Notes: generated from the letters alone by a model not told the origin. A DNA stretch of 64,000 nucleotides from a virus (IMGVR_UViG_3300027804_003215:35481-99480); one strand, 5' to 3'; positions 3 to 64,000 are shown, counted from the stretch's first letter. Numbers and translations: made by a program.

Positions 3-761
3 ACAAAACCTGTAACTGCAAGATTTTATTCAGCACATTTTTGTTTCACTTTGGGTGAGTTCTCTAAAGAAGTTCAACACAATCCTGAATATTATTTTCA
101 TGGCGAAGAGATTTCAATAGCGGCGAGAGCTTACACGTGGGGATACGACTTATTTCATCCACACATTCCTGTTGTATACCATGAGTATACTCGTAAAGGA
201 AGAACAAAGCAGTGGGATGACGATAAAACATGGGGGGATAAAAACAAACATTCACATCTGACAAATAGAAAATTATTTGGTATGGATGGTGAGAAACAAG
301 AAGGTCATGATGGTCCGTACGGATTCGGAACGGTAAGAACCTTAAGAGATTACGAAAAATATTCGGGTTTGTTGTTTGAAAAAAGAGCGGTACAAAGATA
401 TACATTAGACAAAAATTACCCTCCAAATCCTTATAATTACGAAAATGAAGAATCTTGGAAAAAAGATTTTGCTTCAGTTTATAAACATTGTATTGACGTT
501 GGATATTCAAGTGTTCCTGAAAAGGATTATGATTTTTGGGTAGTTGCTTTCCACGGACCGAACGATGAAACATTGTTTAGAAAAGATGCGGATAAAAACG
601 AGATTGCCAGAATGATGAATGACCCAGACAAATATTGTAAAATTTGGAGAGAATTTCAAACAGACGTTCTTCCGAAATATTGGGTTGTATGGCCTCACTC
701 TGAATCAAAAGGTTGGTGTGATAGATTAACGGGACAACTAAACCACAATCACGTAAGTTAA
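3..761 (+). CDS. GT60-like (GlcNAc/Skp1-type) protein O-glycosyltransferase, 5'-truncated by window edge
   Basis: Frame is open from base 3 (TKPVTARFYSAHFCFTLGEF...). F-x-S-A-H-F-x-F followed by P-x-x-Y-F-x-GEEISIAARAYTWGYDLFHP matches the C-terminal half of the GT60/PF11397 catalytic domain. The TTG at 51 is not the true start. Confidence 0.75.
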   Translation, partial: TKPVTARFYSAHFCFTLGEFSKEVQHNPEYYFHGEEISIAARAYTWGYDLFHPHIPVVYHEYTRKGRTKQWDDDKTWGDKNKHSHLTNRKLFGMDGEKQEGHDGPYGFGTVRTLRDYEKYSGLLFEKRAVQRYTLDKNYPPNPYNYENEESWKKDFASVYKHCIDVGYSSVPEKDYDFWVVAFHGPNDETLFRKDADKNEIARMMNDPDKYCKIWREFQTDVLPKYWVVWPHSESKGWCDRLTGQLNHNHVS

Positions 762-1495
762 TGAATCTATCCAATATACCCAAATTTGTTGTTAATTTGG
801 AACGAAGACCTGACCGGTTGGAACATATCAAAAAAGAAATGGAGTACATCGGTTGGGACTTTGAATTATTCAAAGCAATTGATTTGAACAATCACGGAGG
901 TTGTAGTTTATCTCATTTCGAGATTTTGAAATTGGCGAAAGAAAGAAATTACGAGTCTGTAATGGTCATAGAAGATGATTGTACATTTTTACCTTATTCA
1001 AAAAGTTTAATAAATAAGATTGAAAATGAGACTGATGATTTTGAATTCGGTGTGATAAATTTTGCCCCCACTTTGAATAGACCAGTATTACAAAGTTCAA
1101 ATCAACCTTTGTTCTTGGATATAACAACCCTTCCTCCAAAAAAAGAACATGAAAGGGGAATATTTGCAACAAATTTTATGTTATACCATAATTCTATTTA
1201 TGATGGAGTTATGGAAATAGCAAAACCTGAAAATTTGGGTTACTATGCGATTGATGATTTTATTTATCAATTTGTCTACCCAAGAAAACAGAGTTATTCT
1301 CCAATCCTACCATTAGCACCGCAAATTAGTAGTTGGTCTGATGTTTCTCAAGGACAATATAATAACTTTTACACTCAAACTTACAACTGGAATTTATACA
1401 GTCCCTTTAAAATTCCTACTGAGTTTTTGAATGGTGTCAACCTTAAAGAACTTAAAGAAAATAATATTCACAAAGATTTTTATTATGTCAGTTAA
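761..1495 (+). CDS. Glycosyltransferase family 25 (LPS/LOS-type)
   Basis: VVNLERRPDR, GCSLSH and VMVIEDD motifs; TAATG coupling to the upstream gene. Confidence 0.85.
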   Translation: MNLSNIPKFVVNLERRPDRLEHIKKEMEYIGWDFELFKAIDLNNHGGCSLSHFEILKLAKERNYESVMVIEDDCTFLPYSKSLINKIENETDDFEFGVINFAPTLNRPVLQSSNQPLFLDITTLPPKKEHERGIFATNFMLYHNSIYDGVMEIAKPENLGYYAIDDFIYQFVYPRKQSYSPILPLAPQISSWSDVSQGQYNNFYTQTYNWNLYSPFKIPTEFLNGVNLKELKENNIHKDFYYVS

Positions 1496-2366
1496 ATTTA
1501 TTACTTGTATCTACAGTGATTTGAATGGTACAGAGTTTGGAGGAAGACCTCAAAGAGTAAGTCATTATAGATACAGTTTATTATCTCTACTTAAAATGAC
1601 TGAAGCCGATTTTTTGTGTTACACATCAGACAGAGAATTGGAAAATCTAAAAACCTTTTTTTATGAAACACACCAAATCAATCCAAGTAAATTGGAATTT
1701 AAAGTTTTTGATTTAACTCAAACAAAATTCAAAGATTTGATTTTATCCTATAAGGATGTTGGTGCAATAAAAGCAGGTGACAGATGTATTGAAATTCAAT
1801 ATTCAAAATTTCATTGGTGGTGGAATGAAGATAAAAGTTATGATTACTACTATTGGATTGACGCAGGTCTTTCTCATTGTGGTTTAATCCCTTTAAAATA
1901 TTTGACCAATAACCAACTTGAAAGAAGGTATTATGAATCCAATCTCTTTAATAATGATTTTTTGAAAAATATGATTGAAGATACGGGTGATAAGTTTTTA
2001 CTCATTGGTAAAGAGAATGAGAGAAACTATTGGTCAGGAACATTGGACCCCAAATGGTATAAAAACTATGATAGAAGTATTCACATCATTGGTGGGCTTT
2101 TTGGAGGACACAGAAGCAAGTGGGATGAAGTTGTAAACTTATTCGAAAGTTATGCAAAAAATGTTATTGAAGATATCAAACAATTGCCCCACGAAGAAAA
2201 CATCATGAGTCTCATGTTTTTCAATCATCAAGATTTGTTTTATAGAAAACATTTCGATATTTGGTGGTGTAGGGACAATGCACCAAGTGGAGTAGATGAA
2301 ACTTTCTTTACATTGAATAAAAGCTTTTTCAGAATATTAGAAGAATTTAATAGAATTTATGAATAA
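1485..2366 (+). CDS. HtrL/YibB (WlaTC)-like glycosyltransferase
   Basis: YYWIDAGL (DxG), IIGGLFGG and PHEE motifs. Start moved to the ATG at 1485 (MSVKFITC), which overlaps the upstream stop. Confidence 0.6.
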   Translation: MSVKFITCIYSDLNGTEFGGRPQRVSHYRYSLLSLLKMTEADFLCYTSDRELENLKTFFYETHQINPSKLEFKVFDLTQTKFKDLILSYKDVGAIKAGDRCIEIQYSKFHWWWNEDKSYDYYYWIDAGLSHCGLIPLKYLTNNQLERRYYESNLFNNDFLKNMIEDTGDKFLLIGKENERNYWSGTLDPKWYKNYDRSIHIIGGLFGGHRSKWDEVVNLFESYAKNVIEDIKQLPHEENIMSLMFFNHQDLFYRKHFDIWWCRDNAPSGVDETFFTLNKSFFRILEEFNRIYE

Positions 2367-4038
2367 TATAACTCTTGTAACAGGAATATGGGATATTGGA
2401 AGGTCATCTCTCTCTGAGGGTTGGGCAAGACCCTTTCAACATTATTTGGATAAATTTGAATCCTTATTGAAAGTAGAGGAAAACCTTATTGTGTTTGGCG
2501 AAGCCTCGTTGAGGGACTTTGTTTTCCAAAGACGGAGTGAAAAAAACACACAATTTATAGAACGACCTCTTTCTTGGTTCATTAACAATGAGTTTTATCC
2601 CTTAATTCAACAAATTAGAAATAGGGAAGATTGGAAAAACTTGTCGGGTTGGTTAAAAGATTCAACACAAGCAAGATTGGAAAATTATAATCCACTTGTT
2701 ATGTCCAAGGTTTTTCTTTTACACGATGCGAAAATTATGGACAGGTTTGACTCTGAATATATGTTTTGGATTGATGGAGGATTAACAAACACAGTTCATC
2801 CCGGTTATTTTACTCATGACAAAGTATTGGATAAACTAACCAAATACATTTCCAAGTTTTCATTCATTTGTTTCCCTTATGATGCAGAAAGGGAAATTCA
2901 TGGATTTGAATATAATAAATTGAACGAGCTGGCTGGTGCCAAAGTAAATAAAGTGGCAAGAGGAGGGTTCTTTGGTGGACCAAAATCAACAATACCTTCA
3001 ATAAACTCTATCTATTATGGATTGTTAAAATCTACTCTTGAAGAAGGTTACATGGGAACTGAAGAATCAATTTTCAGTATCATGTGTTACAAACACTCTG
3101 ATTTGATAAATTATTTCAAAATTGAATATAACGGACTTATTGGTAAGTTTTTTGAAGACTTGAAAAACGATGTGTTGGAGGCCAAAAATGAAACAAGTGT
3201 TGTATCAAAGAATAATCTTGATATCAACAAAGTTGGATTGTATGTAATCACATTCAATAGTCCAAAACAATTTGAAACTTTGATAAATTCCTTTTTGGAG
3301 TATGATAAAGACTACCTCAATAAAACAAAGAAGTTTCTTCTGAATAACTCAACAGATGATTCAACCTTCGAGGCTTACAAATATCTATGTGAAAAGTATG
3401 ACTTCGAACACATTATACCTGATGAGGGTAATTTAGGAATTTGTGGTGGAAGACAGTTCATTGCAGAACACTTCGACAAAACTGATTTAGATTATTATTT
3501 GTTTTTTGAAGATGACATGTTTTTTTATTGTAAAGACGGAGAAGTTTGTAGAAATGGTTTCAATAGAAAAGTAGACAACTTATACACAAAATCTTTGGAG
3601 ATTGCTAAAAAAGAAAATTTTGATTTCTTAAAGCTAAATTATACTGAGTTCTTCGGTGACAATAGTGTGCAGTGGTCATGGTACAATGTACCCCAAAATG
3701 TTAGAGAAGAGTTTTGGCCTGGTAAACCAAGACTTCCACAAATGGGATTGGACCCAAATGCACCAAAACTTGAATTCAATTCAATTTTATCACACAAAGG
3801 GATTCCTTATGCGACAGGTGAGATTTACTACTGTAATTGGCCTCAAATTGTTTCAAAAACAGGAAATCAAAAAATGTTTTTGGAAACAACTTGGGCGCAT
3901 CCTTTCGAACAGACATGGATGAGTCATATGTATCAACTCACCAAAAAGGGTCAATTGAAACCCGGTATTTTGTTGATGACACCCACGGAACATAACAGGT
4001 TCGAACATTATAATAGAGAACTTCGTAAAGAGTCATAA
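2359..4038 (+). CDS. Two-domain glycosyltransferase: HtrL/YibB-like N-terminus plus GT2/GT-A-like C-terminus
   Basis: N-terminal TLVTGIWDIGR, FWIDGG, GGFFGG and GTEE; C-terminal YVITFN, NLGICGGRQ and FFEDD. Confidence 0.7.
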   Translation: MNNITLVTGIWDIGRSSLSEGWARPFQHYLDKFESLLKVEENLIVFGEASLRDFVFQRRSEKNTQFIERPLSWFINNEFYPLIQQIRNREDWKNLSGWLKDSTQARLENYNPLVMSKVFLLHDAKIMDRFDSEYMFWIDGGLTNTVHPGYFTHDKVLDKLTKYISKFSFICFPYDAEREIHGFEYNKLNELAGAKVNKVARGGFFGGPKSTIPSINSIYYGLLKSTLEEGYMGTEESIFSIMCYKHSDLINYFKIEYNGLIGKFFEDLKNDVLEAKNETSVVSKNNLDINKVGLYVITFNSPKQFETLINSFLEYDKDYLNKTKKFLLNNSTDDSTFEAYKYLCEKYDFEHIIPDEGNLGICGGRQFIAEHFDKTDLDYYLFFEDDMFFYCKDGEVCRNGFNRKVDNLYTKSLEIAKKENFDFLKLNYTEFFGDNSVQWSWYNVPQNVREEFWPGKPRLPQMGLDPNAPKLEFNSILSHKGIPYATGEIYYCNWPQIVSKTGNQKMFLETTWAHPFEQTWMSHMYQLTKKGQLKPGILLMTPTEHNRFEHYNRELRKES

Positions 4039-8766: not shown

Positions 8767-8788
8767 TAGAATGATTTACATATAAATA

Positions 8789-10321: not shown

Positions 10322-10328
10322 ATCTAAT

Positions 10329-10361: not shown

Positions 10362-10366
10362 TGTTA

Positions 10367-12520: not shown

Positions 12521-12563
12521 AGCTTTTGATTGAAATATAACAAACAGAAATATATTTATCAAT

Positions 12564-22375: not shown

Positions 22376-22422
22376 TGACTGAAAAAAACGTTTTTTCTCT
22401 ATTTATTTATAAATAAGTTGGA

Positions 22423-51948: not shown

Positions 51949-52741
51949 GTTTACAATAGAAAGGACACAGGGTGTGGACAAGACTATTAATGTTCCTATT
52001 GAATTATCATGGGATTATGATGGTATTGACCAAAGTATCGACTTGTATGAAGAAGACATAATAACACAAGTTATTGGTGTTGGAAGAGATTTCGAGGTCA
52101 GTAGATTTACAAACGAACCATACACCTCAACGACCTACAACAACCGTACTGAAGTCAATTATGAATTTTATTTTCACTCAGGTACATCGGTGACCAATAT
52201 AAACAATTGGTCAATCAATTATTTAACAGAGGGTTTTTCCGCTCAAGACGTCTTTTATTATAATAGAAATTTTTCGAACTCTTTCTTCAAATTAGATTTT
52301 TATGACTCTCCTGATGAAAAACAACAAATAAATTATTTGACAACAATTATCCCAACTCAACAAGGTCTCAAAATACCTGTTCAAATGCAAAGACAGGTTG
52401 TTCAAATCAACAGACCAAAGTTTGTTTTGGATTATGTTGGAGATAAAGAGGGGTTTTTTATCTATTGGTTGAAAAAAAGAAACTTTTTGGATATCACGAA
52501 GTTTTATATGACCGCAAAATTTTATAATGCAGAAATAGGTGCATTCGTAAGGATGATGAATCAACCACAATCTTCACTCCCGAATACCGAATATACATTC
52601 AATACTCTGACAAACTTCTATTACATACTAAATTTAGATTACCCCAAACAAACTTATACAATTACCACTACAACTGGTGTTAGACTTGGTGACCCGGCAA
52701 ATCCGATAAAATGGTATGAATATGTTAATCCACCAAGATGA
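51935..52741 (+). CDS. Putative baseplate/structural protein
   Basis: Coupled ORF; NSFFKLDFYDS motif. Confidence 0.6.
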   Translation: MSVNKFTIERTQGVDKTINVPIELSWDYDGIDQSIDLYEEDIITQVIGVGRDFEVSRFTNEPYTSTTYNNRTEVNYEFYFHSGTSVTNINNWSINYLTEGFSAQDVFYYNRNFSNSFFKLDFYDSPDEKQQINYLTTIIPTQQGLKIPVQMQRQVVQINRPKFVLDYVGDKEGFFIYWLKKRNFLDITKFYMTAKFYNAEIGAFVRMMNQPQSSLPNTEYTFNTLTNFYYILNLDYPKQTYTITTTTGVRLGDPANPIKWYEYVNPPR

Positions 52742-53832
52742 ATAATAATTTTTACAATATTATTATTTCACCCGAAACCATTCTCGGAGACCTATCAAAA
52801 GTAAATTATAGAGGGAACGAGTTTGGTGTTTATTCTGCCATGACTCAAGTCCTTAGTGGTAGTACAGGAGGAACGTCTACATTGACTGGACTAACGGTTC
52901 CCATTCTTCTGACCCAAACTGCAATAGATGCTGGTTATTACGACCCGTTCGATGGTGCGGTTTTACAAAAAGATGTGGTTGCCAATTTTTTATTTTCAGC
53001 AACAACTGGTTCACCTTACACTTATTACGTTTATAACACCTCAAACGACTTTGCCAAATTTTTAGATTTATCTGTTTATACTATTACATGGGGAGACAAT
53101 TCACCAATACAAATTGTGAACAATTTTTCTCCGAACTTTATTTCTCACACTTATCCATCGGGGTCCAATCAATATACTATAACCTTAAGACAGGATAACC
53201 CTTGGGGAACAACACTTGTAGAAAAGAAAATTGTAACACCTTTTACAAACATTGTTGCTCCTAATCCAAATGGAACCGCATTTTTTATACCGAGAGGGGG
53301 GAATTGGTCTGGTACACCGATAAGTTACAATTATATTTTTTCGGGTGATGCAGTAAATCAAGTATCGGCACAGACAAGTAACAGATATACTACAGTCCCT
53401 TATACTGTTTCAGGTGAGACAAAATCAAGATTGAACGAGCTTCAACTTTATGGTCCGAACAAATTTCAACTTTTTACACCTGTTATTCAAAATGCTCAAG
53501 TTTGGGGAAATATATTTGTTACCGCTTCTACCTACACAGGATATACAGTTCAAGGTATTGATTACTATGATTACATAGATGGTACAACTGTGTTTTTTGG
53601 AAAGTCTTCAGGTTTCACAGACCAAAACCTAACGGCTGTTCCAATAACAAAAAACGAAACATTAATTAAGGTTATGGACCAACCACAGATACAGACAGAT
53701 GTTTTTGTGGAAAGAGGTAAAAACAGTGCCTATGAGAGAGTTCAGAGGTTGGGAGAAGTGGACAACTTGGGTGATATGATAAATTATGGATACGGGTTCT
53801 TTAATGTTGAAAATAAAACAAACGGAGTTTGA
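52738..53832 (+). CDS. Putative structural protein with a PKD-like segment
   Basis: ITWGDNSP...SHTYP..YTITL pattern; ten [ST][GA]xT motifs. Confidence 0.6.
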   Translation: MNNNFYNIIISPETILGDLSKVNYRGNEFGVYSAMTQVLSGSTGGTSTLTGLTVPILLTQTAIDAGYYDPFDGAVLQKDVVANFLFSATTGSPYTYYVYNTSNDFAKFLDLSVYTITWGDNSPIQIVNNFSPNFISHTYPSGSNQYTITLRQDNPWGTTLVEKKIVTPFTNIVAPNPNGTAFFIPRGGNWSGTPISYNYIFSGDAVNQVSAQTSNRYTTVPYTVSGETKSRLNELQLYGPNKFQLFTPVIQNAQVWGNIFVTASTYTGYTVQGIDYYDYIDGTTVFFGKSSGFTDQNLTAVPITKNETLIKVMDQPQIQTDVFVERGKNSAYERVQRLGEVDNLGDMINYGYGFFNVENKTNGV

Positions 53833-53868: not shown

Positions 53869-54777
53869 ATGGCTATAGGTTCATACGGTACAATTAGACC
53901 AAGTGATGTTTCCCCACAGGATGTGGAGATACTGATGGTTTATACGCCATCAAGAGATGTCACTAATGATTTTGTATTAACACGATTGGATGCTCCAACA
54001 ATTCTCAGACCTTATTTCAATAATACTGAGACTGGTGGAAATAATGGTGTAGAAGTTTTGGGAGGACTATATAATCTAACACTTCCCGCAGGTCAGTTCA
54101 ACAATTTAGGATTTTACACTTTGTATATTAGACCTGCACAGATTAGAACAGTAATCACAGATTGTGGTGTATTGAGTGCACTGCCCAACGTAAAAGGGAT
54201 TGTTATAGATTTGTCAAACGTACCTACACAATATCAAAACAATTTTGTTCAACAAGGACTTGTTGGATTTAGAGTTGAATATTTGAATCCTGATGGTTCA
54301 AAAATTCCGAATTTCTTCAGAGTTGTGACCTCTTCATTTTTTTGTGAACCTGTGGTTACAAATGAGGTTAATACAACACAAAAGGCAATAAGGTACAGAT
54401 ATGTTCAAGGAACATCAAATTTGCTTTTCTTAACCTTATCACCATCTTCATCTCCAACCAATAACCCAAATGCCACACCTTACATTGGACAACCTGACCA
54501 AGATATTATCATTTCAAATACATTTTTTAATCCAGTAACATTGGAAATTGAGATGGTTGAATATGACGTATCGAGCTTGGCAATTGCTCTTTATGGTAAT
54601 CAGACCAAGTCTATTGATGATGGAATTTACACTATCTATGATGCTGAAAATAACATCTACAGACAATACAACTTGTATGAAATTAGAGACCAATTCAACG
54701 CTCTTCTTTATGAGGTTAGACAAAGTAGAGGTACAAATATTGATTTCAGTAAGAACTTTGCTTCAATAACAAGTTAA
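53869..54777 (+). CDS. Putative structural protein
   Basis: Own TATTTAT at 53848; beta-rich; TAATG-coupled to the next gene. Confidence 0.6.
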   Translation: MAIGSYGTIRPSDVSPQDVEILMVYTPSRDVTNDFVLTRLDAPTILRPYFNNTETGGNNGVEVLGGLYNLTLPAGQFNNLGFYTLYIRPAQIRTVITDCGVLSALPNVKGIVIDLSNVPTQYQNNFVQQGLVGFRVEYLNPDGSKIPNFFRVVTSSFFCEPVVTNEVNTTQKAIRYRYVQGTSNLLFLTLSPSSSPTNNPNATPYIGQPDQDIIISNTFFNPVTLEIEMVEYDVSSLAIALYGNQTKSIDDGIYTIYDAENNIYRQYNLYEIRDQFNALLYEVRQSRGTNIDFSKNFASITS

Positions 54778-57752
54778 TGGCGACAAGTAGAACAAAATAT
54801 TTTTATCCCCCAAGACCTGGAAATGGTGCTGGGACCTTCTCTGACAATATAGTTGGTCTGCAAACTGTCAATGCGGGTGGTTTGACCTTAGGAACCTTTG
54901 ATTTCACAAGTAATGTGACAGAGAAGGTGAACCGCAAGTTTAATGTCGGTGCTTTTTCTGAATTGATTTCATTAGAAGACTTAAATATTGAGGATATATT
55001 TGAGTCGAGAAGGATACAAGCAACAAACTTTAGAGTTTATCCTAACTACGATGTCTCACAAGTTCTCAATTTTTCTCTTTATGGTTCTTTGGCAAAGAGA
55101 TTTGAAGTTTCTGTTACTAAAATCATCAATTATTTCCCAGCGGCACTAGAAGTTGTTGTTACGAACTTAGAGTTGGTAACAGGTGCAACTGCGATTAACA
55201 TCTCGTACGACCAAATTGAAGATGAAACTTTCTTCGAAGTCAATCTTGATAGGTTAATCAATCCTTTTGATATAGATTATTCTGTAAGTGCCACAACAAA
55301 TATTGAAGCGAGGGAGATTGTTCAATCATATCTCAGAAATTTGACGAATTCGTATTTGGATTATTGTATTGATATCAATGATGACATTTATCAAGTATCA
55401 TCATTTATACCTTCAGATACATTAAGCTCAGGGATATTGGGTTTTTACGTTTCAGGTGCACCATTTGGAACAACCGCGACGACACTAACTCAAAATTTTT
55501 TGATTAGACCAAATGATTACATCGTTGATAAAGTTTTCACAGAAAATTTCGATGAAGTTGAAAAGTTTTTGACAAATAGATTAGTTGTTCCACCTTACAC
55601 AGCCTTTTTCCAAGTACCACAACAAAATGTAGATGGTCAATTTTATACCGAATACAAACAAGTAACTTGGCCAAAAAACGGAAGTTGGAATTTGCTCATC
55701 AGAGGAATTGAGTTTGATAACTATTTGACCGAACTACAATCGATTGCGGAAAATTTGGACTCTTACAAAACCAATTTGGTTTCAAGGTTTCTCGTTTCAG
55801 ATTCTTTGAAAGAATTTGATACGTTAAGTAGAAAGGCTGAAAAGATATTTCAAATTTACGGTAGAAGTTTCGACCAAATCAAACAATTTGCAGATGCTCT
55901 GGCATTTATGAACTCTGTGAATTACAATCCAGGTAATGATATCCCTTCACAACTTTTGGTTAACTTATCACAAACCTTAGGTTGGAGTTCAAACTTCTCT
56001 CCGATTACAGATGAGGACTTTTTGGATTCTATTTTTGGAACAACACCGAATCCAACTTATCCAGGATATGCCCGTTCTCTCACCCCAACAGAAATTAATT
56101 ATGCTTTTTATAGAAATTTGATTTTGAACTCCGCATATCTTTTCAAATCCAAAGGAACAAGAAGGTCAATTGAATTTCTTTTAGGTTTAATCGGTGCACC
56201 ACAATCTCTGATTGAATATAATGAACACATTTATCTTGCGGACCAAAGAATTAATATAGAAAGTTTCAATGCTCAATACGCACAAATTTCAGGTGGAACT
56301 TATGCAGTTGATACCCCCACTTATCTACCTGGAGCAACTTATAAAATCAAAGGTCAATTATTTTCAGCCTTTACCTCTTCATCAAGTTATGAACTGGTTT
56401 TTACCACACCACAAGATTACCCGATAGATGCGGAAGGGTATCCAAAAGCACCTGTAGATACTGAAACTTATTTCTTTGAAATAGGTGCGGGTTGGTATGA
56501 GGTAACACCTGACCATAGAAGTCCTGATGATGTTGTTGTAACAGGAGATGTATTCACGGGACAAAACTTTGATATACAAACTCAGCTTCAGCCTTTCACC
56601 TATGGACAAAAATACTTTGATAGGTTCAGAAATTTTCCATATATGGATTTGGGATACACGTTGAGGTATGTCGTGGATAACAATAAATCTTGGCTTGCTG
56701 ATGATGACAAGATAAGGGTCTCAAGAAATGCAGATTACAATGCCTACTACTTCACACAGAACGAAAAATTAGTATTGAATGCCAAGAATATTGATTTGTT
56801 TTTAAATCCCGCTCAAGGACTTTTATATGATGTGTGGGTTCAATCAAGAAAACATGATTTTCCAATTCCTGAGTCAGGATTAACAATTGGTTATCCTGTC
56901 CCTGGTGGTGTTGATTCAACCTTTATAAATCCCGAGCCGAAGAAAAAAACATTTTTTGAATTCTCTCAGACTTTTTGGGAGAATATGATTAATGTAAGGA
57001 ACAGACAATTTATTACTGACGGAAAAACAGGAGGATATCCAACTCTTCAATCAATTTGGTGGAAGTATATTCAACAATATCAGTTGGACGGTACCGTTAA
57101 CAATCAATATACCTATCAAAAGTTAATTGATTACCTCAATGGAATAGGCCCTTATTGGATGAAGTTGGTAGAACAAATGATTCCTGCCACCACAATTTGG
57201 AACGGTGGTAATAAATTTGAAAATTCAATTTTACATAGACAAAAATTTGTTTACAGAAGACAAAGGGGTTGTGAATTGGTTCCAGTTGTGAAACCTGACT
57301 GCGAGGCTACGTCAGGTATCTTAGGGGGTACAAGTTCAAATCAATATTGGTCGATTTATATTTATCCTTGGCTTAATGGAAATCCAACTGTGTCGGATTT
57401 TAATGGTGTAATGCTTTCTGCTTTGAATACATTCCTAGCATCAAGAGGATTGAACTTGAACAATTGTGTAATAGATACCCTTCAGACCGAGTGGTATGTT
57501 GATTTAAGAATTGGTTCAACTATTTTGGTTCAAGAGATGTTTTTTCAAGGATTAGGTTCAACAGGTTACCCAAGCAATCAACAGTGGATAGATGCCTTAA
57601 ATCAATACCTTCCTGAACTTTATACTCAGGGGTATAATTTTGTGGTAAGTGGAAATCAACTAACAATTACAAATTTGACCTCATCACCATTATACAACGG
57701 ACAACAACTAACATTGAACGTTGGAATAAACTTTAATATCAACTGTAATTAA
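54777..57752 (+). CDS. Baseplate wedge protein (gp7/tail protein I-like core)
   Basis: IPSQLL..L.Q.LGW and YLFKSKGTRRSIEFLL.LIG motifs. Confidence 0.6.
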   Translation: MATSRTKYFYPPRPGNGAGTFSDNIVGLQTVNAGGLTLGTFDFTSNVTEKVNRKFNVGAFSELISLEDLNIEDIFESRRIQATNFRVYPNYDVSQVLNFSLYGSLAKRFEVSVTKIINYFPAALEVVVTNLELVTGATAINISYDQIEDETFFEVNLDRLINPFDIDYSVSATTNIEAREIVQSYLRNLTNSYLDYCIDINDDIYQVSSFIPSDTLSSGILGFYVSGAPFGTTATTLTQNFLIRPNDYIVDKVFTENFDEVEKFLTNRLVVPPYTAFFQVPQQNVDGQFYTEYKQVTWPKNGSWNLLIRGIEFDNYLTELQSIAENLDSYKTNLVSRFLVSDSLKEFDTLSRKAEKIFQIYGRSFDQIKQFADALAFMNSVNYNPGNDIPSQLLVNLSQTLGWSSNFSPITDEDFLDSIFGTTPNPTYPGYARSLTPTEINYAFYRNLILNSAYLFKSKGTRRSIEFLLGLIGAPQSLIEYNEHIYLADQRINIESFNAQYAQISGGTYAVDTPTYLPGATYKIKGQLFSAFTSSSSYELVFTTPQDYPIDAEGYPKAPVDTETYFFEIGAGWYEVTPDHRSPDDVVVTGDVFTGQNFDIQTQLQPFTYGQKYFDRFRNFPYMDLGYTLRYVVDNNKSWLADDDKIRVSRNADYNAYYFTQNEKLVLNAKNIDLFLNPAQGLLYDVWVQSRKHDFPIPESGLTIGYPVPGGVDSTFINPEPKKKTFFEFSQTFWENMINVRNRQFITDGKTGGYPTLQSIWWKYIQQYQLDGTVNNQYTYQKLIDYLNGIGPYWMKLVEQMIPATTIWNGGNKFENSILHRQKFVYRRQRGCELVPVVKPDCEATSGILGGTSSNQYWSIYIYPWLNGNPTVSDFNGVMLSALNTFLASRGLNLNNCVIDTLQTEWYVDLRIGSTILVQEMFFQGLGSTGYPSNQQWIDALNQYLPELYTQGYNFVVSGNQLTITNLTSSPLYNGQQLTLNVGINFNINCN

Positions 57753-59926
57753 TGTTTTTTATTGGTTATGAATTAAATGTAACAGGTGATTGTAGTTCAC
57801 AAGGCGTAGGTATAATTAGTATTTTACCTTCAGGAGGAACGCCTCCTTATGTGGTAGAGTGGATTAATCCAGTCTTGCCACCAACTGAAACGATTTTAGG
57901 AACAAGTTTAGAAGAATCCTTAGAAGTACAAGCCGTTTCTCCGTCAGTAAGAACTGGTCTTTACCCTGGAATTTATCAAATCAACATCACTGACAGCGCA
58001 CAACCTACCAACAACCAAATTTTAGTAAACGCATATGTTTCAAGTGGATTTTGTACTTCAATTCTTTCAGTAAGTGCAACTACATGTGGTTTAAATAATG
58101 GTTCTGTTACACCATCTGCAACAACAGCAGCTTCCGCAGTTCAATTTAATGTTTATAATACAGGAAATACTCTTGTTGATTTCATTGATACACAAAATGG
58201 AGAATTTCAAATAGGTGATTTAAGTGGTGGTACATATTATATTGTTGCAATTGATAGTGGAGGATGTTCAGCTAGAACATCTAATTTCATAGTTTTAGAC
58301 TCCTCACCACTCGATTTTGGTTTTTACACTGTGCCAAACTCCGCATGTTTACCAACAGGGGAGGCAATCGGTAAAATATATGTTACGGGTCAAACGGGAA
58401 CTCCCCCTTACACATATCTTTGGAGTAATAATGCTACAGGAAGCACAATAACCGGTCTTACAACTGGAGTTTACTCTTGTACCGTTACAGATTCGAATGG
58501 TTGTTCTACAACGAAAAACACTGAGGTAACCAATGTACCCACTTTGGGTCTTATATATTTCAGTGCATACACACCCACTTGTTTTGAGGCAAACGGTGCT
58601 TTAGAAATTTTCATCTCAGGAGGAACTGCACCGTATTATTATTCTGCAAGTACAGGAAATGTAGATATAAGTTACGCACAAAATTTTACAATCTCGAATA
58701 TACCCTCAGGTGATTATGGTTTCGTTGTAACAGACGCAGGTTTATGTCAACTATATGCTGCAAGTAATTTACAGGCGCCTAATTCAATCGGTTCCATATC
58801 AATAAATGCCACGAATTCTACTTGTTCCTCAACAAATGGTTCCATCGCAGTAAATGTTGGTCAAGGTACACCTCCATTTACTTATACATTGGTTTATCCT
58901 GATAGTTCGAACGATTCTATAACAATCAGTCTCCCTAATTATAGCTTCACTAATTTGTATCAGGGCTCATATACAGTTTTAGTTGAAGATGATAGTTCGT
59001 GTGTATTTTCTCAAGTCGTAAATATTTTTACTTCAAATCTCTTTGAAATTTTTACTTCAACAACAGGTTCAACTTGTGGGTTGAACAATGGTTCAATTTA
59101 TGTTGAGATGACGACGGGTGGAACTGCACCTTTCACGTATTCCATCGATGACGTTAATGTTGTCCCTAATTCAAGTTTGACAAGTTATACATATTCTAAT
59201 GTATCACAGGGTTCTCACGTAGTTTCTGTCACCGATGCTAACGGGTGTCAACAACCTCAAACAGTATTTGTGAATGGAACTCCACAAATGGAGTTTAGTT
59301 TATTTGCAGTTGGATGTGGTAATGGCTCAGAGGGTTCTATAACTGCACTAATATCTTCAGGAACTCCACCTTTTGTTTATACGTGGTCGAATAATGTTGC
59401 TGGTAATCCCCAATCAATAACCGCAAACAATCTTACAGGTGGAACATATAATTTAACAATCACGGATGCCAACGGATGTAGTTTAGAAAGAAGCACCACA
59501 ATATCATGTTCTGCAGTCAATTCAGGTTACGTACCTTTTGAGGTTGGAACTGAGGAATTAGTTGTTACTGTGGAAAGTGAAATGGGAATGTTAGAAATGC
59601 TCAATGATGGGTTCCAAGATTTAACAAACGGAAATCCAAATTGTATTCTAAACTCTGCAACATTCATTGCTTCAGTTTCAGTTACACCTGTTGGTTTGTA
59701 TTTACAAGATGTTTTCTATTCAGGGTCAACACTTGTCGATGTTCCTGCTTCTAACTTGTGGTATTCGGCTGTTGAAAATTTACTGATAGCCGTTCCTGGA
59801 GTACAGAGTGTAAACATCAATCCTCTCACAAATCAAATTACAATTACGAAGAGTCCAACCAATCCATATCTGAGTGGACAAATCATAAACATTTCAATTG
59901 CTATTGAATACGATATAAGTTGTTAA
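57752..59926 (+). CDS. SprB-repeat adhesin-like virion protein
   Basis: About six repeats of C...NGSI.V...GGT(A/P)P(F/Y)TY.W.......L..G.Y...VTD.NGC. Confidence 0.75.
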   Translation: MFFIGYELNVTGDCSSQGVGIISILPSGGTPPYVVEWINPVLPPTETILGTSLEESLEVQAVSPSVRTGLYPGIYQINITDSAQPTNNQILVNAYVSSGFCTSILSVSATTCGLNNGSVTPSATTAASAVQFNVYNTGNTLVDFIDTQNGEFQIGDLSGGTYYIVAIDSGGCSARTSNFIVLDSSPLDFGFYTVPNSACLPTGEAIGKIYVTGQTGTPPYTYLWSNNATGSTITGLTTGVYSCTVTDSNGCSTTKNTEVTNVPTLGLIYFSAYTPTCFEANGALEIFISGGTAPYYYSASTGNVDISYAQNFTISNIPSGDYGFVVTDAGLCQLYAASNLQAPNSIGSISINATNSTCSSTNGSIAVNVGQGTPPFTYTLVYPDSSNDSITISLPNYSFTNLYQGSYTVLVEDDSSCVFSQVVNIFTSNLFEIFTSTTGSTCGLNNGSIYVEMTTGGTAPFTYSIDDVNVVPNSSLTSYTYSNVSQGSHVVSVTDANGCQQPQTVFVNGTPQMEFSLFAVGCGNGSEGSITALISSGTPPFVYTWSNNVAGNPQSITANNLTGGTYNLTITDANGCSLERSTTISCSAVNSGYVPFEVGTEELVVTVESEMGMLEMLNDGFQDLTNGNPNCILNSATFIASVSVTPVGLYLQDVFYSGSTLVDVPASNLWYSAVENLLIAVPGVQSVNINPLTNQITITKSPTNPYLSGQIINISIAIEYDISC

Positions 59927-60336: not shown

Positions 60337-61242
60337 ATGTCCCTTCAATCAATTTTTGTTGTCAATACTGCACCCGGTTGTGATAATTTCATTCAACAAC
60401 AAATCTCTGCGGACACTTGTAATTCGTATATAATTAGAATTACCCCTAATACAAATGCGTTAGGTCCTTTTGATGTTTATGTAAGTACCTATCCCGACCC
60501 GTTATCTGCAGCAACACTTTATTATTCTGCACAAACACGTACGCAAATGTTGAACGGAGTTGTAGTTCAACTCGGTCCTTGTGTTACTCCTACGCCAACA
60601 CCAACTCCAACATCTACACCTCCACCTTCAACTCCAACACAAACGCCAACAAACACCGCCACTCCTTCAGAAACTCCTACAAATACACCAACACCTTCTT
60701 TCACACCAACTTCATCTGAAACCCCAACACCTACACCAACGTTTACAAGTACACCAACTAACACTCCAACTTATACTCCATCAGAGACACCAACTGAAAC
60801 ACCAACGCCAACAAACACAGAAACTCCTACTGAAACGCCAACAAATACACCGACAACAACTGAAACACCGACTCAAACACCTACACCTTCACCATCTCCA
60901 TCACCAAGTGTTTTTGAGATTTTAATTATGGACCAAAATGGTAATGTAATTATTACCCAAGATGGTAATCCATTGATTTTACAAGAGGATGCGACAGGGT
61001 ATTTAGTGAGTTCAGGTGAAACATCTCAACCAATTTGTATTGACCCGCAAACATTGACTCAAACAATATACTCCCCAACAAATGATTGGAGTATTGTTTT
61101 AAGATTCTTCAGTGATAGTGGTCTGAATACTCCATTTAACGGAAACAACTATTGGTACACTAATAGTACAGATTCTCAAACAGGTTATTGGCAAATTGGA
61201 ACAGACGGTTTTGTGATTGGATATTTATGGGACCCTTGTTAA
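60337..61242 (+). CDS. Pro/Thr-repeat (mucin-like linker) protein
   Basis: About 105 aa of TPTPT/TPTNT/TPSET repeats between two globular parts; TATTTAT at 60311. Confidence 0.8.
60584..60908 (+). repeat. Coding low-complexity (T-P-T-x)n repeat
   Basis: Degenerate ACWCCWACN repeats. Confidence 0.85.
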
Positions 61243-61284
61243 AAATAAAATGAAAAAAGTAAAGATTAAAAATATTTATTAGCT

Positions 61285-64000
61285 ATGGCAAATGTAAGAA
61301 TAACCGATTTAAGTATTGCACTTTCAGCCGCCCCCAGCGATGTGCTCTATATTGTAACGAACTACGAGCAAGGTAGTCCAACTTTAACCGGGGATTCTCA
61401 ACAGATAGCATTTTCTGCTTTGACAGACAGTATCACCGGGGGTACTAGTGGTTCGTCTGGAACAAGTGGAACATCTGGTTCATCAGGAATTGATGGTACT
61501 TCTGGTACTAACGGTTCTTCTGGTATTGATGGTACATCAGGAACGTCTGGCTCATCAGGAACGTCTGGCTCATCAGGAGTTGATGGTACTTCGGGTACTA
61601 ACGGCTCTTCTGGTGTTGATGGAACATCGGGTACTAACGGCTCTTCTGGTGTTGATGGTACATCGGGAACGAGTGGCTCATCAGGAATTGATGGAACATC
61701 AGGAACGTCTGGTTCATCAGGAATTGATGGAACATCAGGAACGTCTGGCTCATCAGGAACTGATGGTACTTCTGGTACTAACGGCTCTTCTGGTGTTGAT
61801 GGAACATCGGGTACTAACGGCTCTTCTGGTATTGATGGCACATCGGGAACGTCTGGTTCATCAGGAATTGATGGAACATCAGGAACGTCTGGCTCATCAG
61901 GAATTGATGGAACATCAGGAACGTCTGGCTCATCAGGAGTTGATGGTACTTCGGGTTCTTCAGGAGTGGATGGAACATCAGGAACAAGTGGTACATCGGG
62001 GACATCAGGAACAAGCGGTTCATCAGGAACAAGTGGATTGAGTGGTGTTAATGGAACAAGCGGTACCTCAGGTTCAAGTGGAACACAAGGAACTAGCGGT
62101 TCATCTGGTACAAGTGGTTCTTCAGGAACAGATGGTACATCAGGAACAAGCGGTTCATCTGGTACAAGTGGTTCTTCAGGAACAGACGGAACAAGTGGAA
62201 CGTCAGGTTCAAGTGGAACAGACGGAACAAGCGGAACATCAGGTTCAAGCGGTACAGACGGAACATCTGGTTCATCAGGTACAGACGGAACAAGTGGTAC
62301 TTCAGGAAGTTCAGGTACAGACGGAACAAGTGGTACTTCAGGAAGTTCAGGTACAGACGGAACGAGCGGAACATCAGGCTCAAGTGGTACAGATGGCACA
62401 AGCGGTACATCAGGTTCAAGTGGTACAGATGGCACAAGCGGTACATCAGGTTCATCTGGAACAGATGGTAGTTCGGGAACATCTGGTTCATCAGGAACAG
62501 ATGGCACATCAGGAACAAGTGGTTCTTCAGGAACAGACGGAACAAGCGGAACATCAGGTTCAAGTGGTACAGATGGCACAAGCGGTACATCAGGTTCATC
62601 TGGAACAGATGGTAGTTCGGGAACATCTGGTTCATCAGGAACAGATGGCACATCAGGAACAAGTGGTTCTTCAGGAACAGACGGAACAAGCGGAACATCA
62701 GGTTCAAGTGGGACAGATGGTACATCAGGAACAAGTGGAACATCTGGTTCATCAGGCACAGACGGAACATCAGGTTCAAGTGGTACGGATGGTACTTCAG
62801 GAACTTCTGGTTCATCAGGAACGTCGGGTTCTTCGGGAACTGACGGAACTTCAGGTACAAGTGGCTCTTCAGGAACAGATGGCACAAGCGGTACATCAGG
62901 CTCATCAGGAACAGACGGAACAAGCGGAACTTCAGGTTCAAGTGGAACAGACGGAACAAGCGGAACATCAGGTTCAAGTGGGACAGATGGTACTTCAGGA
63001 ACAAGTGGTTCTTCAGGAACTGACGGTACAAGTGGTACGTCAGGTTCTTCAGGAACAGATGGCACATCAGGAACATCGGGTTCTTCAGGAACAAGCGGTA
63101 CAGATGGTACATCAGGTACAAGTGGTTCTTCTGGAACTAGTGGAACATCAGGTTCAAGTGGAACAGACGGTACTTCGGGTACAAGTGGTTCATCAGGAAC
63201 AGATGGTACTTCAGGTACATCAGGAACAAGCGGTTCGTCAGGAACTAGCGGTACAGATGGTACATCAGGTACAAGTGGTTCTTCTGGAACTAGCGGTACA
63301 GACGGCACTTCAGGAACATCAGGTTCATCAGGTACAAGCGGAACAGATGGTACTTCAGGTACAAGCGGTTCATCAGGAACAAGCGGAACAGATGGTACAT
63401 CAGGAACATCAGGTTCATCAGGTACATCCGGAACTGACGGAACATCAGGAACATCAGGTACTTCAGGGTCATCAGGAACAAGCGGTACAGATGGTACTTC
63501 AGGAACATCTGGAACAAGCGGTTCTTCAGGTACTTCAGGTACAGACGGCACTTCAGGAACAAGTGGTACATCAGGAACAACTGGCACATCGGGAACAAGT
63601 GGTACATCAGGTACAAGTGGTACATCAGGTACAAGTGGAACATCAGGAACTACTGGAACTAGTGGTAGTTCAGGAACAAGTGGTACAGACGGTACATCAG
63701 GAACTAGTGGTACATCAGGTACAACTGGCACATCAGGAACAAGTGGAACTTCAGGTACTAGTGGAACTTCAGGAACTACTGGAACAAGTGGTACATCAGG
63801 TACAACTGGCACATCAGGAACAAGTGGTACATCAGGAACAACTGGCACATCGGGAACAAGTGGTACATCTGGTACAACTGGCACATCGGGAACAAGTGGT
63901 ACATCAGGTACAAGTGGTACATCAGGTACAAGTGGAACATCAGGAACTACTGGAACTAGTGGTAGTTCAGGAACAAGTGGTACAGACGGTACATCAGGAA
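61285..64000 (+). CDS. Proline-free collagen-like (Gly-X-Y)n fibre protein, 3'-truncated by window edge (not in ORF track)
   Basis: ATG 61285 gives MANVRITDLSIALSAAPSDVLYIV... (a fibre-type N-terminus), then GTS/GSS/GTD/GID/GTN/GTT triplets from 61441 to the window end with no stop. TATTTAT lies 5 nt upstream. Confidence 0.9.
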   Translation, partial: MANVRITDLSIALSAAPSDVLYIVTNYEQGSPTLTGDSQQIAFSALTDSITGGTSGSSGTSGTSGSSGIDGTSGTNGSSGIDGTSGTSGSSGTSGSSGVDGTSGTNGSSGVDGTSGTNGSSGVDGTSGTSGSSGIDGTSGTSGSSGIDGTSGTSGSSGTDGTSGTNGSSGVDGTSGTNGSSGIDGTSGTSGSSGIDGTSGTSGSSGIDGTSGTSGSSGVDGTSGSSGVDGTSGTSGTSGTSGTSGSSGTSGLSGVNGTSGTSGSSGTQGTSGSSGTSGSSGTDGTSGTSGSSGTSGSSGTDGTSGTSGSSGTDGTSGTSGSSGTDGTSGSSGTDGTSGTSGSSGTDGTSGTSGSSGTDGTSGTSGSSGTDGTSGTSGSSGTDGTSGTSGSSGTDGSSGTSGSSGTDGTSGTSGSSGTDGTSGTSGSSGTDGTSGTSGSSGTDGSSGTSGSSGTDGTSGTSGSSGTDGTSGTSGSSGTDGTSGTSGTSGSSGTDGTSGSSGTDGTSGTSGSSGTSGSSGTDGTSGTSGSSGTDGTSGTSGSSGTDGTSGTSGSSGTDGTSGTSGSSGTDGTSGTSGSSGTDGTSGTSGSSGTDGTSGTSGSSGTSGTDGTSGTSGSSGTSGTSGSSGTDGTSGTSGSSGTDGTSGTSGTSGSSGTSGTDGTSGTSGSSGTSGTDGTSGTSGSSGTSGTDGTSGTSGSSGTSGTDGTSGTSGSSGTSGTDGTSGTSGTSGSSGTSGTDGTSGTSGTSGSSGTSGTDGTSGTSGTSGTTGTSGTSGTSGTSGTSGTSGTSGTTGTSGSSGTSGTDGTSGTSGTSGTTGTSGTSGTSGTSGTSGTTGTSGTSGTTGTSGTSGTSGTTGTSGTSGTSGTTGTSGTSGTSGTSGTSGTSGTSGTTGTSGSSGTSGTDGTSG
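61441..64000 (+). repeat. 9-bp-period coding repeat (GGN-ACN/TCN-NNN), about 284 triplets, with internal exact duplications
   Basis: 144-bp-period tandem duplication at about 62407-62711; a ~127 bp block at 63577 is repeated at 63874. Confidence 0.9.

What the first reader, a model, noticed from the sequence alone, without database searches (positions are those of the whole stretch)
3..64000. Candidate phage-encoded virion O-glycosylation system: GT60 initiator, extending GTs, and a [S/T]-[G/A]-x-T sequon in structural proteins
Seen in sequence: the 4-residue motif [ST][GA]xT is dense in virion proteins and nearly absent from the enzymes checked. Hand counts give 10 in the 364-aa ORF 52738 (SAMT, SGST, TGGT, TGLT, SATT, SAQT, SGET, TAST, TGYT, SGFT; roughly 1 expected from composition) and about 8 in the sheath, all in the non-core insertions. 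There are about 16 in the SprB-repeat protein (some are part of the repeat itself) and several each in ORFs 45141, 54777, 60337 and 61285. I found none in the ~930-aa polymerase or the 620-aa NrdJ. The window also has five GT domains at 3-4038. Established: GT60 enzymes (Dictyostelium Gnt1, trypanosome mucin OGNTs) are relatives of polypeptide GalNAc-transferases and start O-glycans on protein hydroxyls. The Bacteroidota general O-glycosylation sequon D-[ST]-[AILVMT] is a different motif. Inference: the phage coats tail, baseplate and fibres with its own glycans through a dedicated sequon, for shielding, stability or adhesion.
Basis: partly seen in the sequence, partly recalled or inferred. 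Interest (0 to 1): 0.9.

Follow-up and report, generated by a model that had tools for sequence, protein, structure and literature searches.

The report
Phage virion motif beside glycosylation genes
An uncultured jumbo phage carries many sugar-adding genes, and a subset of its outer tail proteins holds the short motif Ser/Thr-Gly/Ala-x-Thr about five times too often; the excess is real and selected, but it does not follow the GT60 enzyme from phage to phage, and nothing shows that sugar is attached there.

Summary
The counts are right and far beyond chance. Six virion proteins in the window hold 52 [ST][GA]xT against 11.2 expected; the reversed control gives 16, and Ser at position 4 is depleted (4 vs 10.7). 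Twelve other tail-module proteins (6 vs 8.4) and the enzymes (4 vs 4.1) sit at expectation, so 'absent from enzymes' is not a depletion. The motif is protein-level, directional and Thr-specific, with a hydrophobic residue before it. Outside the SprB-repeat protein it lies in mutually non-homologous segments. It persists in homologues down to about 30% identity (278 vs 35), and motif-free homologues keep the strand framework, so the fold does not need it. The GT60, GT25 and HtrL/GT2 genes are real. All relatives sampled over enough sequence carry both GT60 and the motif, which is not an independent test. Phage XacN1 has GT60 and HtrL/GT2 homologues but no motif excess. Thr-Pro mucin-like tracts do track GT60: they occur in this clade and in XacN1 but not in T4, RaK2 or Mel-JY01, and lie 73-84 bp from GT60 here and in one relative. 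GT60 therefore more likely decorates Thr-Pro linkers. The motif may be a tag with an unknown reader or a structural preference. The scan found the same motif before in other genomes, with similar verdicts.

The parts
3..761 (+). C-terminal 252 aa of the GT60-like glycosyltransferase. The full 422-aa ORF starts 507 bases before the window (contig 34973-36241 = L002:14973-16241).
   Evidence: PF11397 at 230 bits for the full ORF and phrog_24687 at E 1.7e-164. It is 45-50% identical to GTs of XacN1, Xoo-sp13, CM1 and RAS14.
761..1495 (+). GT25-family glycosyltransferase
   Evidence: PF01755 at 56 bits, above cut-off.
1431..2366 (+). ORF with a weak HtrL-like segment
   Evidence: No Pfam hit. A 49-residue match to the HtrL domain of the next ORF, E 2e-5.
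2359..4038 (+). HtrL/YibB domain plus a weak GT2-like C-terminal half
   Evidence: PF09612 at 65 bits; PF00535 at E 0.0065, below cut-off. A full-length 43% homologue in XacN1 (ORF330) lies four genes from XacN1's GT60.
14813..18028 (+). Tail sheath with a large N-terminal insertion. It has 8 motifs, 7 of them at residues 140-353.
   Evidence: phrog_23 at E 8e-56, plus PF04984 and PF17482 at residues 853-1061. 8 against 2.5 expected, all with Gly at position 2.
45141..50273 (+). 1710-aa protein after the baseplate wedge genes; motif-rich
   Evidence: 9 against 2.7 expected, z 3.9. No Pfam or PHROG hit.
50266..51948 (+). 560-aa protein in the baseplate/fibre gene run; modest excess here, extreme in clade 2
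   Evidence: 3 against 0.55 here. The G006 homologue has 17 against 0.92.
52738..53832 (+). 364-aa protein with a PKD-like domain and a second confident beta-rich domain; the most motif-dense protein
   Evidence: 10 against 1.0, z 9.3. Family-wide 278 against 34.6, with the reversed control at 35. AF2 model mean pLDDT 66 with confident strand-rich regions at 84-170 and 223-290. PKD1 domains match about 90 aligned residues at TM about 0.7; the WGDGS signature sits at 118-122.
54777..57752 (+). 991-aa fibre-region protein; motif-rich
   Evidence: 6 against 1.3. Clade-2 homologues have 20 against 2.75 and 22 against 1.9.
57752..59926 (+). SprB-repeat protein; its motif excess comes mostly from internal repeats
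   Evidence: PF13573 at 80 bits in 5 stretches. 16 against 3.05 expected. 15 of 16 motif windows fall in two homologous clusters.
60337..61242 (+). Thr-Pro mucin-like tract protein (22% Thr, 18 TPT); a likely GT60-type acceptor
   Evidence: T.T occurs 42 times against 14 expected. Maximum of 50% Thr in a 40-aa window. 18 TPT.
61285..64000 (+). Gly-X-Y collagen-like protein rich in Gly, Ser and Thr, open at the window end; the motif is depleted here
   Evidence: 10 against 40 expected. GTS/GTT triplets.
20465..34518 (+). Internal contrast: four ORFs in the tail module (636, 1659, 106 and 2268 aa) without motif excess
   Evidence: The three large ORFs give 1 vs 1.3, 2 vs 1.9 and 2 vs 2.9. The 1659-aa ORF has an OmpA-like domain.

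Best explanation
Two separate features sit in this window.

(1) The GT60-led cassette (GT60, GT25, HtrL-like, HtrL/GT2) most likely starts and extends O-glycans on Thr in the Thr-Pro mucin-like linkers of fibre-type virion proteins. One such gene ends 73 bp before GT60.

(2) The motif hydrophobic-[ST]-[G>>A]-x-T is a genuine linear motif selected at the protein level. It lies on a subset of outer virion proteins: the sheath insertion, the proteins encoded after the baseplate wedge genes, and two unannotated proteins near the head genes. It is specific to this superclade of uncultured jumbo phages. The fold does not require it and it is not the GT60 sequon.

My leading guess is that the motif is a recognition tag for some clade-specific factor, possibly another soluble glycosyltransferase such as the conserved GT2-like/GT1-like pair. 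A structural or assembly role is nearly as likely.

Shown: the excess, its directionality, its Thr specificity, its independence from homology, its persistence in the family, and its failure to follow GT60 into XacN1. Inferred: that anything is attached, to either the tracts or the motif.
For: Motif excess and specificity: (52 against 11.2; reversed control 16; xS 4 against 10.7).

Family-wide persistence. All 80 close relatives have 4-10 motifs. Forty-five distant homologues total 278 against 34.6. The motif occupies 76 alignment columns, with a few conserved sites and many lineage-specific ones.

Not generic to myovirus tails: T4, Mel-JY01 and RaK2 have no significant protein.

Not one duplicated domain: 64 of 81 motif windows are non-homologous singletons, and the only flanking preference is hydrophobic at -1, 60% against 35% background.

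Not a DNA motif: codons follow the gene background at Gly, Ala and both Thr positions.

The fold does not need it: motif-free homologues P0025, P0030 and P0106 keep the strand framework but carry K, E, H or V at motif positions.

GT60 against the tracts: the GT60-positive genomes (own contig, G001, G012, XacN1) have 4, 11, 6 and 14 proteins with Thr-rich tracts. The GT60-negative T4, RaK2 and Mel-JY01 have none. GT60 lies 73 bp (own contig) and 84 bp (G001) from a TPT-tract gene.

Literature: T. cruzi GT60 acts on Thr runs (PMC3769586). XacN1 virions give glycoprotein-stained bands (PMC5852040).
Against: There is no chemical evidence of any modification.

The tract-GT60 co-occurrence rests on two independent GT60-positive lineages and three negative controls. 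In G012 and XacN1 the tract genes are not adjacent to GT60.

Every genome of this superclade that I sampled over enough sequence has both GT60 and the motif. A clade-specific change in GT60 acceptor preference therefore cannot be excluded.

Surface exposure of the motif is not established. The only usable model has mean pLDDT 66, and six of the ten sites in ORF 52738 lie in low-confidence regions.

The candidate alternative reader (the GT2-like/GT1-like pair) has the same clade-wide distribution as any other clade-specific gene, so it is only a lead.

The GT cassette sits next to the DNA polymerase, so an acceptor other than protein is possible.
Confidence: 0.45

Rival explanations
1. One reading: the GT60 enzyme recognises [ST][GA]xT as a dedicated sequon on tail, baseplate and fibre proteins, and the neighbouring GTs extend the glycan.
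For: GT60 is a polypeptide O-GlcNAc-transferase family, and the T. cruzi enzyme makes GlcNAc-O-Thr linkages, which fits the strict Thr at position 4. Eight of nine long related contigs carry GT60, and the ninth appears truncated before the GT60 position. All of them carry a 52738 homologue, and G001 and G012, which I analysed in full, are motif-rich. The motif is independent of the fold, and charged replacements in motif-free homologues suggest exposed positions.
Against: XacN1 has GT60 (47% identity) and HtrL/GT2 (43%) homologues but no motif excess in 553 ORFs. Co-occurrence within the clade is not phylogenetically independent. Known GT60 acceptors are Thr-rich tracts, which this phage has next to GT60. 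GT60 changes position between subclades while the motif-rich genes stay put.
Confidence: 0.12
2. The motif carries no modification. It is a local structural or assembly feature, such as a preferred strand-end or edge-strand solution or a contact surface, that spread among the beta-rich outer proteins of this clade.
For: In the confident parts of the model the motifs lie at strand ends or inside strands (residues 87, 225, 262, 267). The hydrophobic residue at -1 and the frequent aromatic or aliphatic x fit beta structure. Part of the signal in 57752 is the conserved SprB-repeat turn. Some sites are nearly invariant, for example ref 267 and 291.
Against: There is no excess in the tail and fibre proteins of T4, RaK2, XacN1 or Mel-JY01. 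Motif-free homologues keep the same strand framework. There is high turnover, with 76 alignment columns against 25 for the reversed control. Gly and Ala interchange at position 2, which suggests a small side chain is needed rather than a positive-phi turn (inference). Strict Thr with Ser depleted is unusual for a purely conformational preference.
Confidence: 0.3
3. The GT cassette does not act on virion proteins at all. It remodels a host surface glycan (LPS, capsule or glycoprotein) or glycosylates modified phage DNA, and the motif is unrelated.
For: The cassette lies directly upstream of the DNA polymerase, and XacN1's GT60 also lies near its polymerase and RNase H. GT25 and HtrL are named after LPS-related functions. 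Phage GTs that modify DNA or host serotype are well known (PMC12619734 text).
Against: PF11397 enzymes with known activity act on polypeptides. GT60 abuts Thr-Pro tract genes in two genomes. XacN1 has stained virion glycoproteins. I did not look for hydroxymethylase genes, so DNA modification is untested.
Confidence: 0.13

Closest known systems
Protist GT60 (Pfam PF11397) polypeptide alpha-GlcNAc-transferases: T. cruzi pp-alpha-GlcNAcT on mucins; Dictyostelium Gnt1
   Same: Strong full-length PF11397 match (230 bits). The T. cruzi product is GlcNAc-O-Thr on Thr-rich mucin cores (PMC3769586), and this phage encodes Thr-Pro mucin-like proteins right beside the gene.
   Different: Here the enzyme is phage-encoded and would act in the bacterial cytoplasm on virion proteins. 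Its donor sugar and acceptor are untested. The dispersed [ST][GA]xT motif has no counterpart among the GT60 acceptors described in that paper.
Mycobacteriophage virion O-glycosylation (Freeman et al. 2023, Cell Host Microbe; known to me only through its citation in PMC12619734)
   Same: Phage-encoded GTs thought to decorate the phage's own virion proteins.
   Different: In that system the glycans sit on C-terminal tracts of the capsid and tail-tube subunits. Here the capsid protein is not clearly enriched, the motif is dispersed inside folded domains of sheath, baseplate-region and fibre proteins, and the GT families differ.
Xanthomonas jumbo phage XacN1 (PMC5852040)
   Same: It shares the GT60 (47%) and HtrL/GT2 (43%) genes and many Thr-Pro tract proteins. 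Its virions give glycoprotein-stained bands.
   Different: It has no [ST][GA]xT excess (163 against 175 expected). Its structural genes are unrelated, being RaK2-like according to that paper.
Bacteroidota general O-glycosylation sequon D-[ST]-[AILVMT]
   Same: A short sequon on many unrelated proteins in the likely host phylum.
   Different: The motif is different. Position -1 here is hydrophobic in 60% of cases and Asp is not among the six commonest residues there. By my own knowledge, that system acts after export, whereas phage virion proteins fold in the cytoplasm.
'Moraphages', aquatic jumbo phages predicted to infect Flavobacteriia (PMC12619734)
   Same: Uncultured aquatic phages of roughly 300 kb with contractile tails, T4-like affinities and four core GT orthogroups.
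   Different: I did not test whether this contig belongs to that lineage. The passages I searched did not mention the motif.

Membership tests
GT60 / PF11397 polypeptide GlcNAc-transferase | Full-length match to the family profile above the curated cut-off | tested here: met
   230 bits against a cut-off of 21 for the 422-aa ORF; phrog_24687 at E 1.7e-164.
GT60 / PF11397 polypeptide GlcNAc-transferase | Catalytic metal-binding motif and UDP-GlcNAc donor use | not tested
   I did not inspect catalytic residues. Activity needs an enzyme assay.
GT60 / PF11397 polypeptide GlcNAc-transferase | Thr-rich polypeptide acceptors available | tested here: met
   Four proteins on the contig have at least 35% Thr in a 40-aa window, and one ends 73 bp from GT60.
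Sequon-directed protein glycosylation (generic definition) | The motif is over-represented against composition, directional and residue-specific | tested here: met
   52 against 11.2; reversed control 16; xS 4 against 10.7.
Sequon-directed protein glycosylation (generic definition) | The motif is independent of fold and homology | tested here: met
   64 of 81 windows are non-homologous. Motif-free homologues keep the strand framework.
Sequon-directed protein glycosylation (generic definition) | Motif residues are solvent-exposed | tested here: inconclusive
   The model has mean pLDDT 66 and no coordinates are available; four sites lie at strand ends or in strands and six in low-confidence regions. 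Charged replacements in motif-free homologues hint at exposure.
Sequon-directed protein glycosylation (generic definition) | The motif co-varies with its proposed reader enzyme (GT60) across independent lineages | tested here: not met
   XacN1 is GT60-positive with no excess. Within the clade both features are present together in the genomes analysed.
Sequon-directed protein glycosylation (generic definition) | A glycan is shown on the motif residue | not testable with these tools
   Needs mass spectrometry of virions or of co-expressed proteins.
Mycobacteriophage-type virion glycosylation | Glycans on C-terminal tracts of the capsid and tail-tube subunits | tested here: not met
   The tube (18986) has 0 motifs. 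The capsid protein of relatives has 2 against 1.0 and 4 against 1.2. The motifs are internal and dispersed.
Bacteroidota D-[ST]-[AILVMT] O-glycosylation | Asp immediately before the acceptor Ser/Thr | tested here: not met
   Position -1 is hydrophobic in 60% of 210 instances, and Asp is not among the six commonest residues there.
T4-type contractile tail sheath | Sheath core domains | tested here: met
   phrog_23 at E 8e-56, with PF04984 and PF17482 at residues 853-1061.
SprB repeat protein (PF13573) | Repeated SprB units above the cut-off | tested here: met
   80 bits in five stretches in ORF 57752.

The most novel reading that the evidence does not exclude
Hydrophobic-[ST]-[GA]-x-T is a true modification sequon on beta-rich surface domains of outer virion proteins. 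A soluble, clade-specific phage enzyme reads it in the host cytoplasm; that enzyme is not GT60 and may be the conserved GT2-like/GT1-like pair. This widespread group of uncultured jumbo phages would then run two parallel virion-glycosylation routes, mucin-type on Thr-Pro linkers and sequon-type on folded domains. It would be the first sequon-directed general protein glycosylation system known in a phage.
Probability: 0.3. Interest if true: 0.85.

Novelty: new variant of a known kind. Interest (0 to 1): 0.58.

Why it matters
Virion glycosylation is experimentally established in very few phages. Here a common group of uncultured jumbo phages combines a protist-type mucin-initiating enzyme, its likely Thr-Pro acceptors and a nucleotide-sugar toolkit. 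It also has a separate five-residue motif, statistically very strong, on non-homologous outer virion proteins. If the motif is a modification tag, it would give a predictive rule for which phage surfaces are decorated. That matters for host recognition, for stability and for how phages are seen by defences and grazers. If it is structural, it is an unusual clade-specific sequence rule for beta-rich virion proteins. Either way the GT60 question can be tested directly with two peptides and one recombinant enzyme.

Tried and rejected
1. A 'natural experiment' that I first accepted and then rejected. Contigs G006 and G007 are collinear with this contig, lack the GT60 cassette and the sugar operon at the syntenic sites, and are equally motif-rich. 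Near-complete genomes of the same subclade carry GT60 elsewhere. The one without it (G014) is a contig that ends before the position where its collinear relative G012 has GT60 and HtrL. So no GT60-less, motif-rich relative was found.

The genomic context of the motif-free homologues P0025, P0030 and P0106 could not be read, and IMG/VR holds no usable relatives of P0025 or P0030.

3. The first AlphaFold model, from a shallow alignment, was unusable at pLDDT 41. The second reached 66. Foldseek against the PDB gave no match at E <= 0.001 and only weak PKD/FN3 domain hits.

4. A same-fold comparison with T4, Mel-JY01 and XacN1 by BLAST failed. Only the motif-free sheath core and some enzymes have homologues there.

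5. The conserved GT2-like and GT1-like genes have no homologue in 50,697 deposited phage records, so no independent co-occurrence test was possible.

6. DNA-level cause rejected. Only Ser at position 1 shows a codon skew, towards TCA.

7. A single duplicated domain as the source was rejected, except for the SprB protein.

8. Composition or low complexity as the source was rejected by local shuffles and by the reversed and permuted controls.

9. I did not use complex prediction. No specific enzyme-substrate pair was well enough supported, and enzyme-substrate pairs rarely pass that test.

Full report
WHAT THE WINDOW IS. The window is the last 64 kb of a 99,480-base virus contig. It encodes a distant T4-like contractile tail: sheath 14813-18028, tube 18986, baseplate hub 19547, and wedge subunits 42730 and 43215. 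A run of large unannotated proteins follows, which by position I take to be baseplate-periphery and fibre proteins (45141 to the window end). The window starts inside a GT60-like gene. The full 422-aa ORF gives PF11397 at 230 bits and phrog_24687 at E 1.7e-164. Next come a GT25 gene, an ORF with a weak HtrL-like segment, and an HtrL protein with a weak GT2 match. Upstream on the contig are Gmd, a DegT/ColD-like enzyme, an epimerase/reductase, GT11, GT10, a TylF-type methyltransferase, a weak GT1 match and a GT2-like gene at contig 8727-9512. Relatives are abundant in IMG/VR. They include a 317-kb genome rated complete (G001) and a second subclade with contigs of 234-334 kb, four of which I could search (234-288 kb).

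Against 2000 shuffles, ORF 52738 has 10 motifs against 1.0 expected (z 9.3), 57752 has 16 against 3.05, the sheath 8 against 2.5, 45141 has 9 against 2.7 and 54777 has 6 against 1.3. Shuffling within 20-residue blocks, which keeps local composition, changes little. The signal is directional and residue-specific. The reversed pattern, the two permuted patterns and altered spacing are all flat, and Ser at position 4 is depleted. Summed over the six motif-rich proteins, the forward motif is 52 against 11.2 expected, the reversed control is 16, and [ST][GA]xS is 4 against 10.7.

Two parts of the description need correcting. First, the enzymes are not depleted: non-structural proteins total 4 against 4.1, so zero in the polymerase and NrdJ is simply what chance gives. 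Second, 'virion proteins' is too broad. Twelve other tail-module proteins, including ORFs of 636, 1659 and 2268 aa, total 6 against 8.4. The major capsid protein of complete relatives is not clearly enriched, at 2 against 1.0 and 4 against 1.2. The Gly-X-Y protein at 61285 is depleted, at 10 against 40.

WHAT KIND OF MOTIF IT IS. Outside the window, a 502-aa protein (contig 2208-3716) has 8 against 0.7. All 80 close relatives of ORF 52738 carry 4-10 motifs. So do most of 45 full-length homologues at 29-57% identity: 278 observed against 34.6 expected, with the reversed control at 35. In a 48-sequence alignment the motif occupies 76 columns, against 25 for the reversed control. A few sites are nearly fixed (ref 225, 267, 291) and many are lineage-specific.

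Motif windows from different proteins are not homologous to one another: 64 of 81 are singletons. The exception is the SprB-repeat protein, where 15 of 16 windows fall in two repeat clusters. The only flanking preference is a hydrophobic residue at -1 (60% against 35% background), and position 2 is Gly in 83% and Ala in 17% of cases. Codon usage inside the motif follows the gene background apart from a TCA preference for Ser, so the constraint is on the protein, not the DNA.

Three family members (P0025, P0030, P0106) have no motif at all. At the best-conserved sites they keep the strand framework but carry other residues. For example, F-V-K-Y-E-I stands where motif-bearing members have [FY]-T-[GA]-Y-T-I, and E-G-T-T or K-G-K-T stands where the others have S-G-x-T. 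So the fold does not require the motif, and the charged replacements suggest that positions 2 and 4 tolerate solvent.

The AlphaFold model of ORF 52738 reached mean pLDDT 66. It has two confident strand-rich regions (84-170 and 223-290). The first is PKD-like: solved PKD1 domains match about 90 aligned residues at TM about 0.7, and the WGDGS signature sits at residues 118-122. In the confident regions the motifs lie at strand ends or in strands, and the other six sites are in low-confidence regions. Exposure is therefore not settled.

IS IT GENERIC TO PHAGE TAILS? No. The same whole-proteome test gives 4 significant proteins (p < 1e-3) on this contig, 7 in G001 and 11 in G012. It gives none in T4, Mel-JY01, RaK2 or XacN1.

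DOES IT FOLLOW GT60? Within the superclade the question cannot be answered. All five long contigs of the first subclade and three of four long contigs of the second carry GT60. The exception, G014, ends at 233 kb, while its apparently collinear relative G012 has GT60 and HtrL at 265-280 kb. I first read two 76-86 kb contigs that lack the cassette at the syntenic site, yet are very motif-rich, as a natural knock-out. The longer genomes showed this to be relocation plus truncation, and I withdraw that reading.

The one independent lineage with GT60 is the XacN1 group of Xanthomonas and Stenotrophomonas jumbo phages, at 45-50% identity. XacN1 also has a full-length 43% homologue of the HtrL/GT2 protein four genes away. 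Even so it shows no motif excess: 163 against 175 expected, with no significant protein among 553 ORFs.

WHAT DOES FOLLOW GT60. Proteins with a 40-residue window of at least 35% Thr, almost all of the (x-T-P-T)n type, number 4 on this contig, 11 in G001, 6 in G012 and 14 in XacN1. T4, RaK2 (which the XacN1 paper describes as its closest structural relative) and Mel-JY01 have none. On this contig a TPT-tract gene ends 73 bp before GT60, and in G001 the gap is 84 bp. In G012 and XacN1 the tract genes lie further away. The characterised T. cruzi enzyme makes GlcNAc-alpha-O-Thr on mucins that are about 50% Thr and about 1% Ser, and it is assayed on a Thr-run peptide (PMC3769586). XacN1 encodes only two annotated GTs, one of them the GT60 homologue, and its virions show at least two periodate-Schiff-stained bands whose identity was not reported (PMC5852040). 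The sample is small, with two independent positive lineages and three negatives, but it points to Thr-Pro linkers as the GT60 acceptors.

BEST READING. The GT60 cassette probably builds mucin-type glycans on Thr-Pro linkers of fibre proteins. The hydrophobic-[ST]-[G>>A]-x-T motif is a separate, selected, fold-independent linear motif on a subset of outer virion proteins, and its reader, if it has one, is unknown.

A modification tag read by another clade-specific enzyme is my leading guess. It rests on the strict Thr, the small residue two positions before it, the turnover of sites, and the absence of the motif from other phages and from some homologues. The GT2-like/GT1-like pair beside the motif-rich proteins near the head genes is conserved in both subclades and absent from all deposited phage records. 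It is a candidate reader, but that distribution is shared by any clade-specific gene.

A purely structural or assembly role is almost as likely. A non-protein acceptor for the GT cassette (host glycan or DNA) is not excluded.

KNOWN COMPARISONS. The enzyme is a member of PF11397 by sequence. The system resembles mycobacteriophage virion glycosylation only in being phage-encoded, because the sites and GT families differ. The motif is not the Bacteroidota D-[ST]-[AILVMT] sequon. The clade may be the 'moraphages' of PMC12619734, but I did not test that.

EARLIER NOTES OF THIS SCAN. Notes on this genome and follow-ups on at least five other genomes describe the same motif. Their verdicts match mine: the excess is real, it does not follow GT60, and Pro-Thr tracts are the likelier target. 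I read the follow-ups after running my own tests. One of them prompted the check.

LIMITS. There is no chemistry. My ORF calls use a simple longest-ORF picker, which missed at least one gene.

Noticed in passing
window 2359-4038; L104:13312-14952 (XacN1 ORF330): The HtrL/GT2 protein has a full-length 43% homologue in XacN1, annotated there as hypothetical and four genes from XacN1's GT60. GT60 plus HtrL/GT2 looks like a two-gene module shared by two otherwise unrelated jumbo phage groups.
   Followed up: partly
contig 8727-10569, minus strand (L001), outside the window: A GT2-like gene (missed by my ORF picker) and a weak GT1-like gene sit side by side next to the motif-rich 502- and 699-aa proteins. 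BLAST shows the pair in both subclades (G001, G006, G007). Neither gene has a homologue in 50,697 deposited phage records.
   Followed up: partly
G012:C1:107949-124367 (L298-L299): A single 5472-aa ORF with 978 TPT tripeptides: a giant mucin-like protein in the fibre region of the second subclade.
   Followed up: no
G012:C1:265393-267547: Two tandem GT60 copies in this 92%-complete relative, about 135-200 kb from its Thr-Pro tract genes. The position of GT60 differs between the two subclades.
   Followed up: no
contig 12178-22354 (L001/L002), outside the window: The sugar operon (Gmd, DegT/ColD-like, epimerase, GT11, GT10, TylF methyltransferase) is missing at the syntenic site of G006 and G007, where PhoH is followed directly by the homologue of contig 22539. 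It looks like an accessory island.
   Followed up: partly
G007 carries class I RNR large and small subunits between the homologues of window ORFs 39143 and 42730, where this window has NrdJ.
   Followed up: no
window 22423-27402, residues 857-940: An OmpA-like peptidoglycan-binding domain (PF00691, 29 bits) inside the 1659-aa tail-module protein that lacks motif excess. It fits a cell-wall-engaging hub or ejected protein.
   Followed up: no
motif-rich ORFs of the contig: Ser at motif position 1 uses TCA in 67% of cases against 32% elsewhere in the same genes (p 5e-4). All other motif codons follow the background. This may be a codon-pair effect before GGN/GCN.
   Followed up: no
G001:C1:291276-293474 (L102:11276-13474, minus strand): A 732-aa protein with 18 motifs against 1.8 expected (p 1e-12) and no Pfam hit. 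It lies beside three Thr-Pro tract proteins and has no counterpart on my contig.
   Followed up: partly
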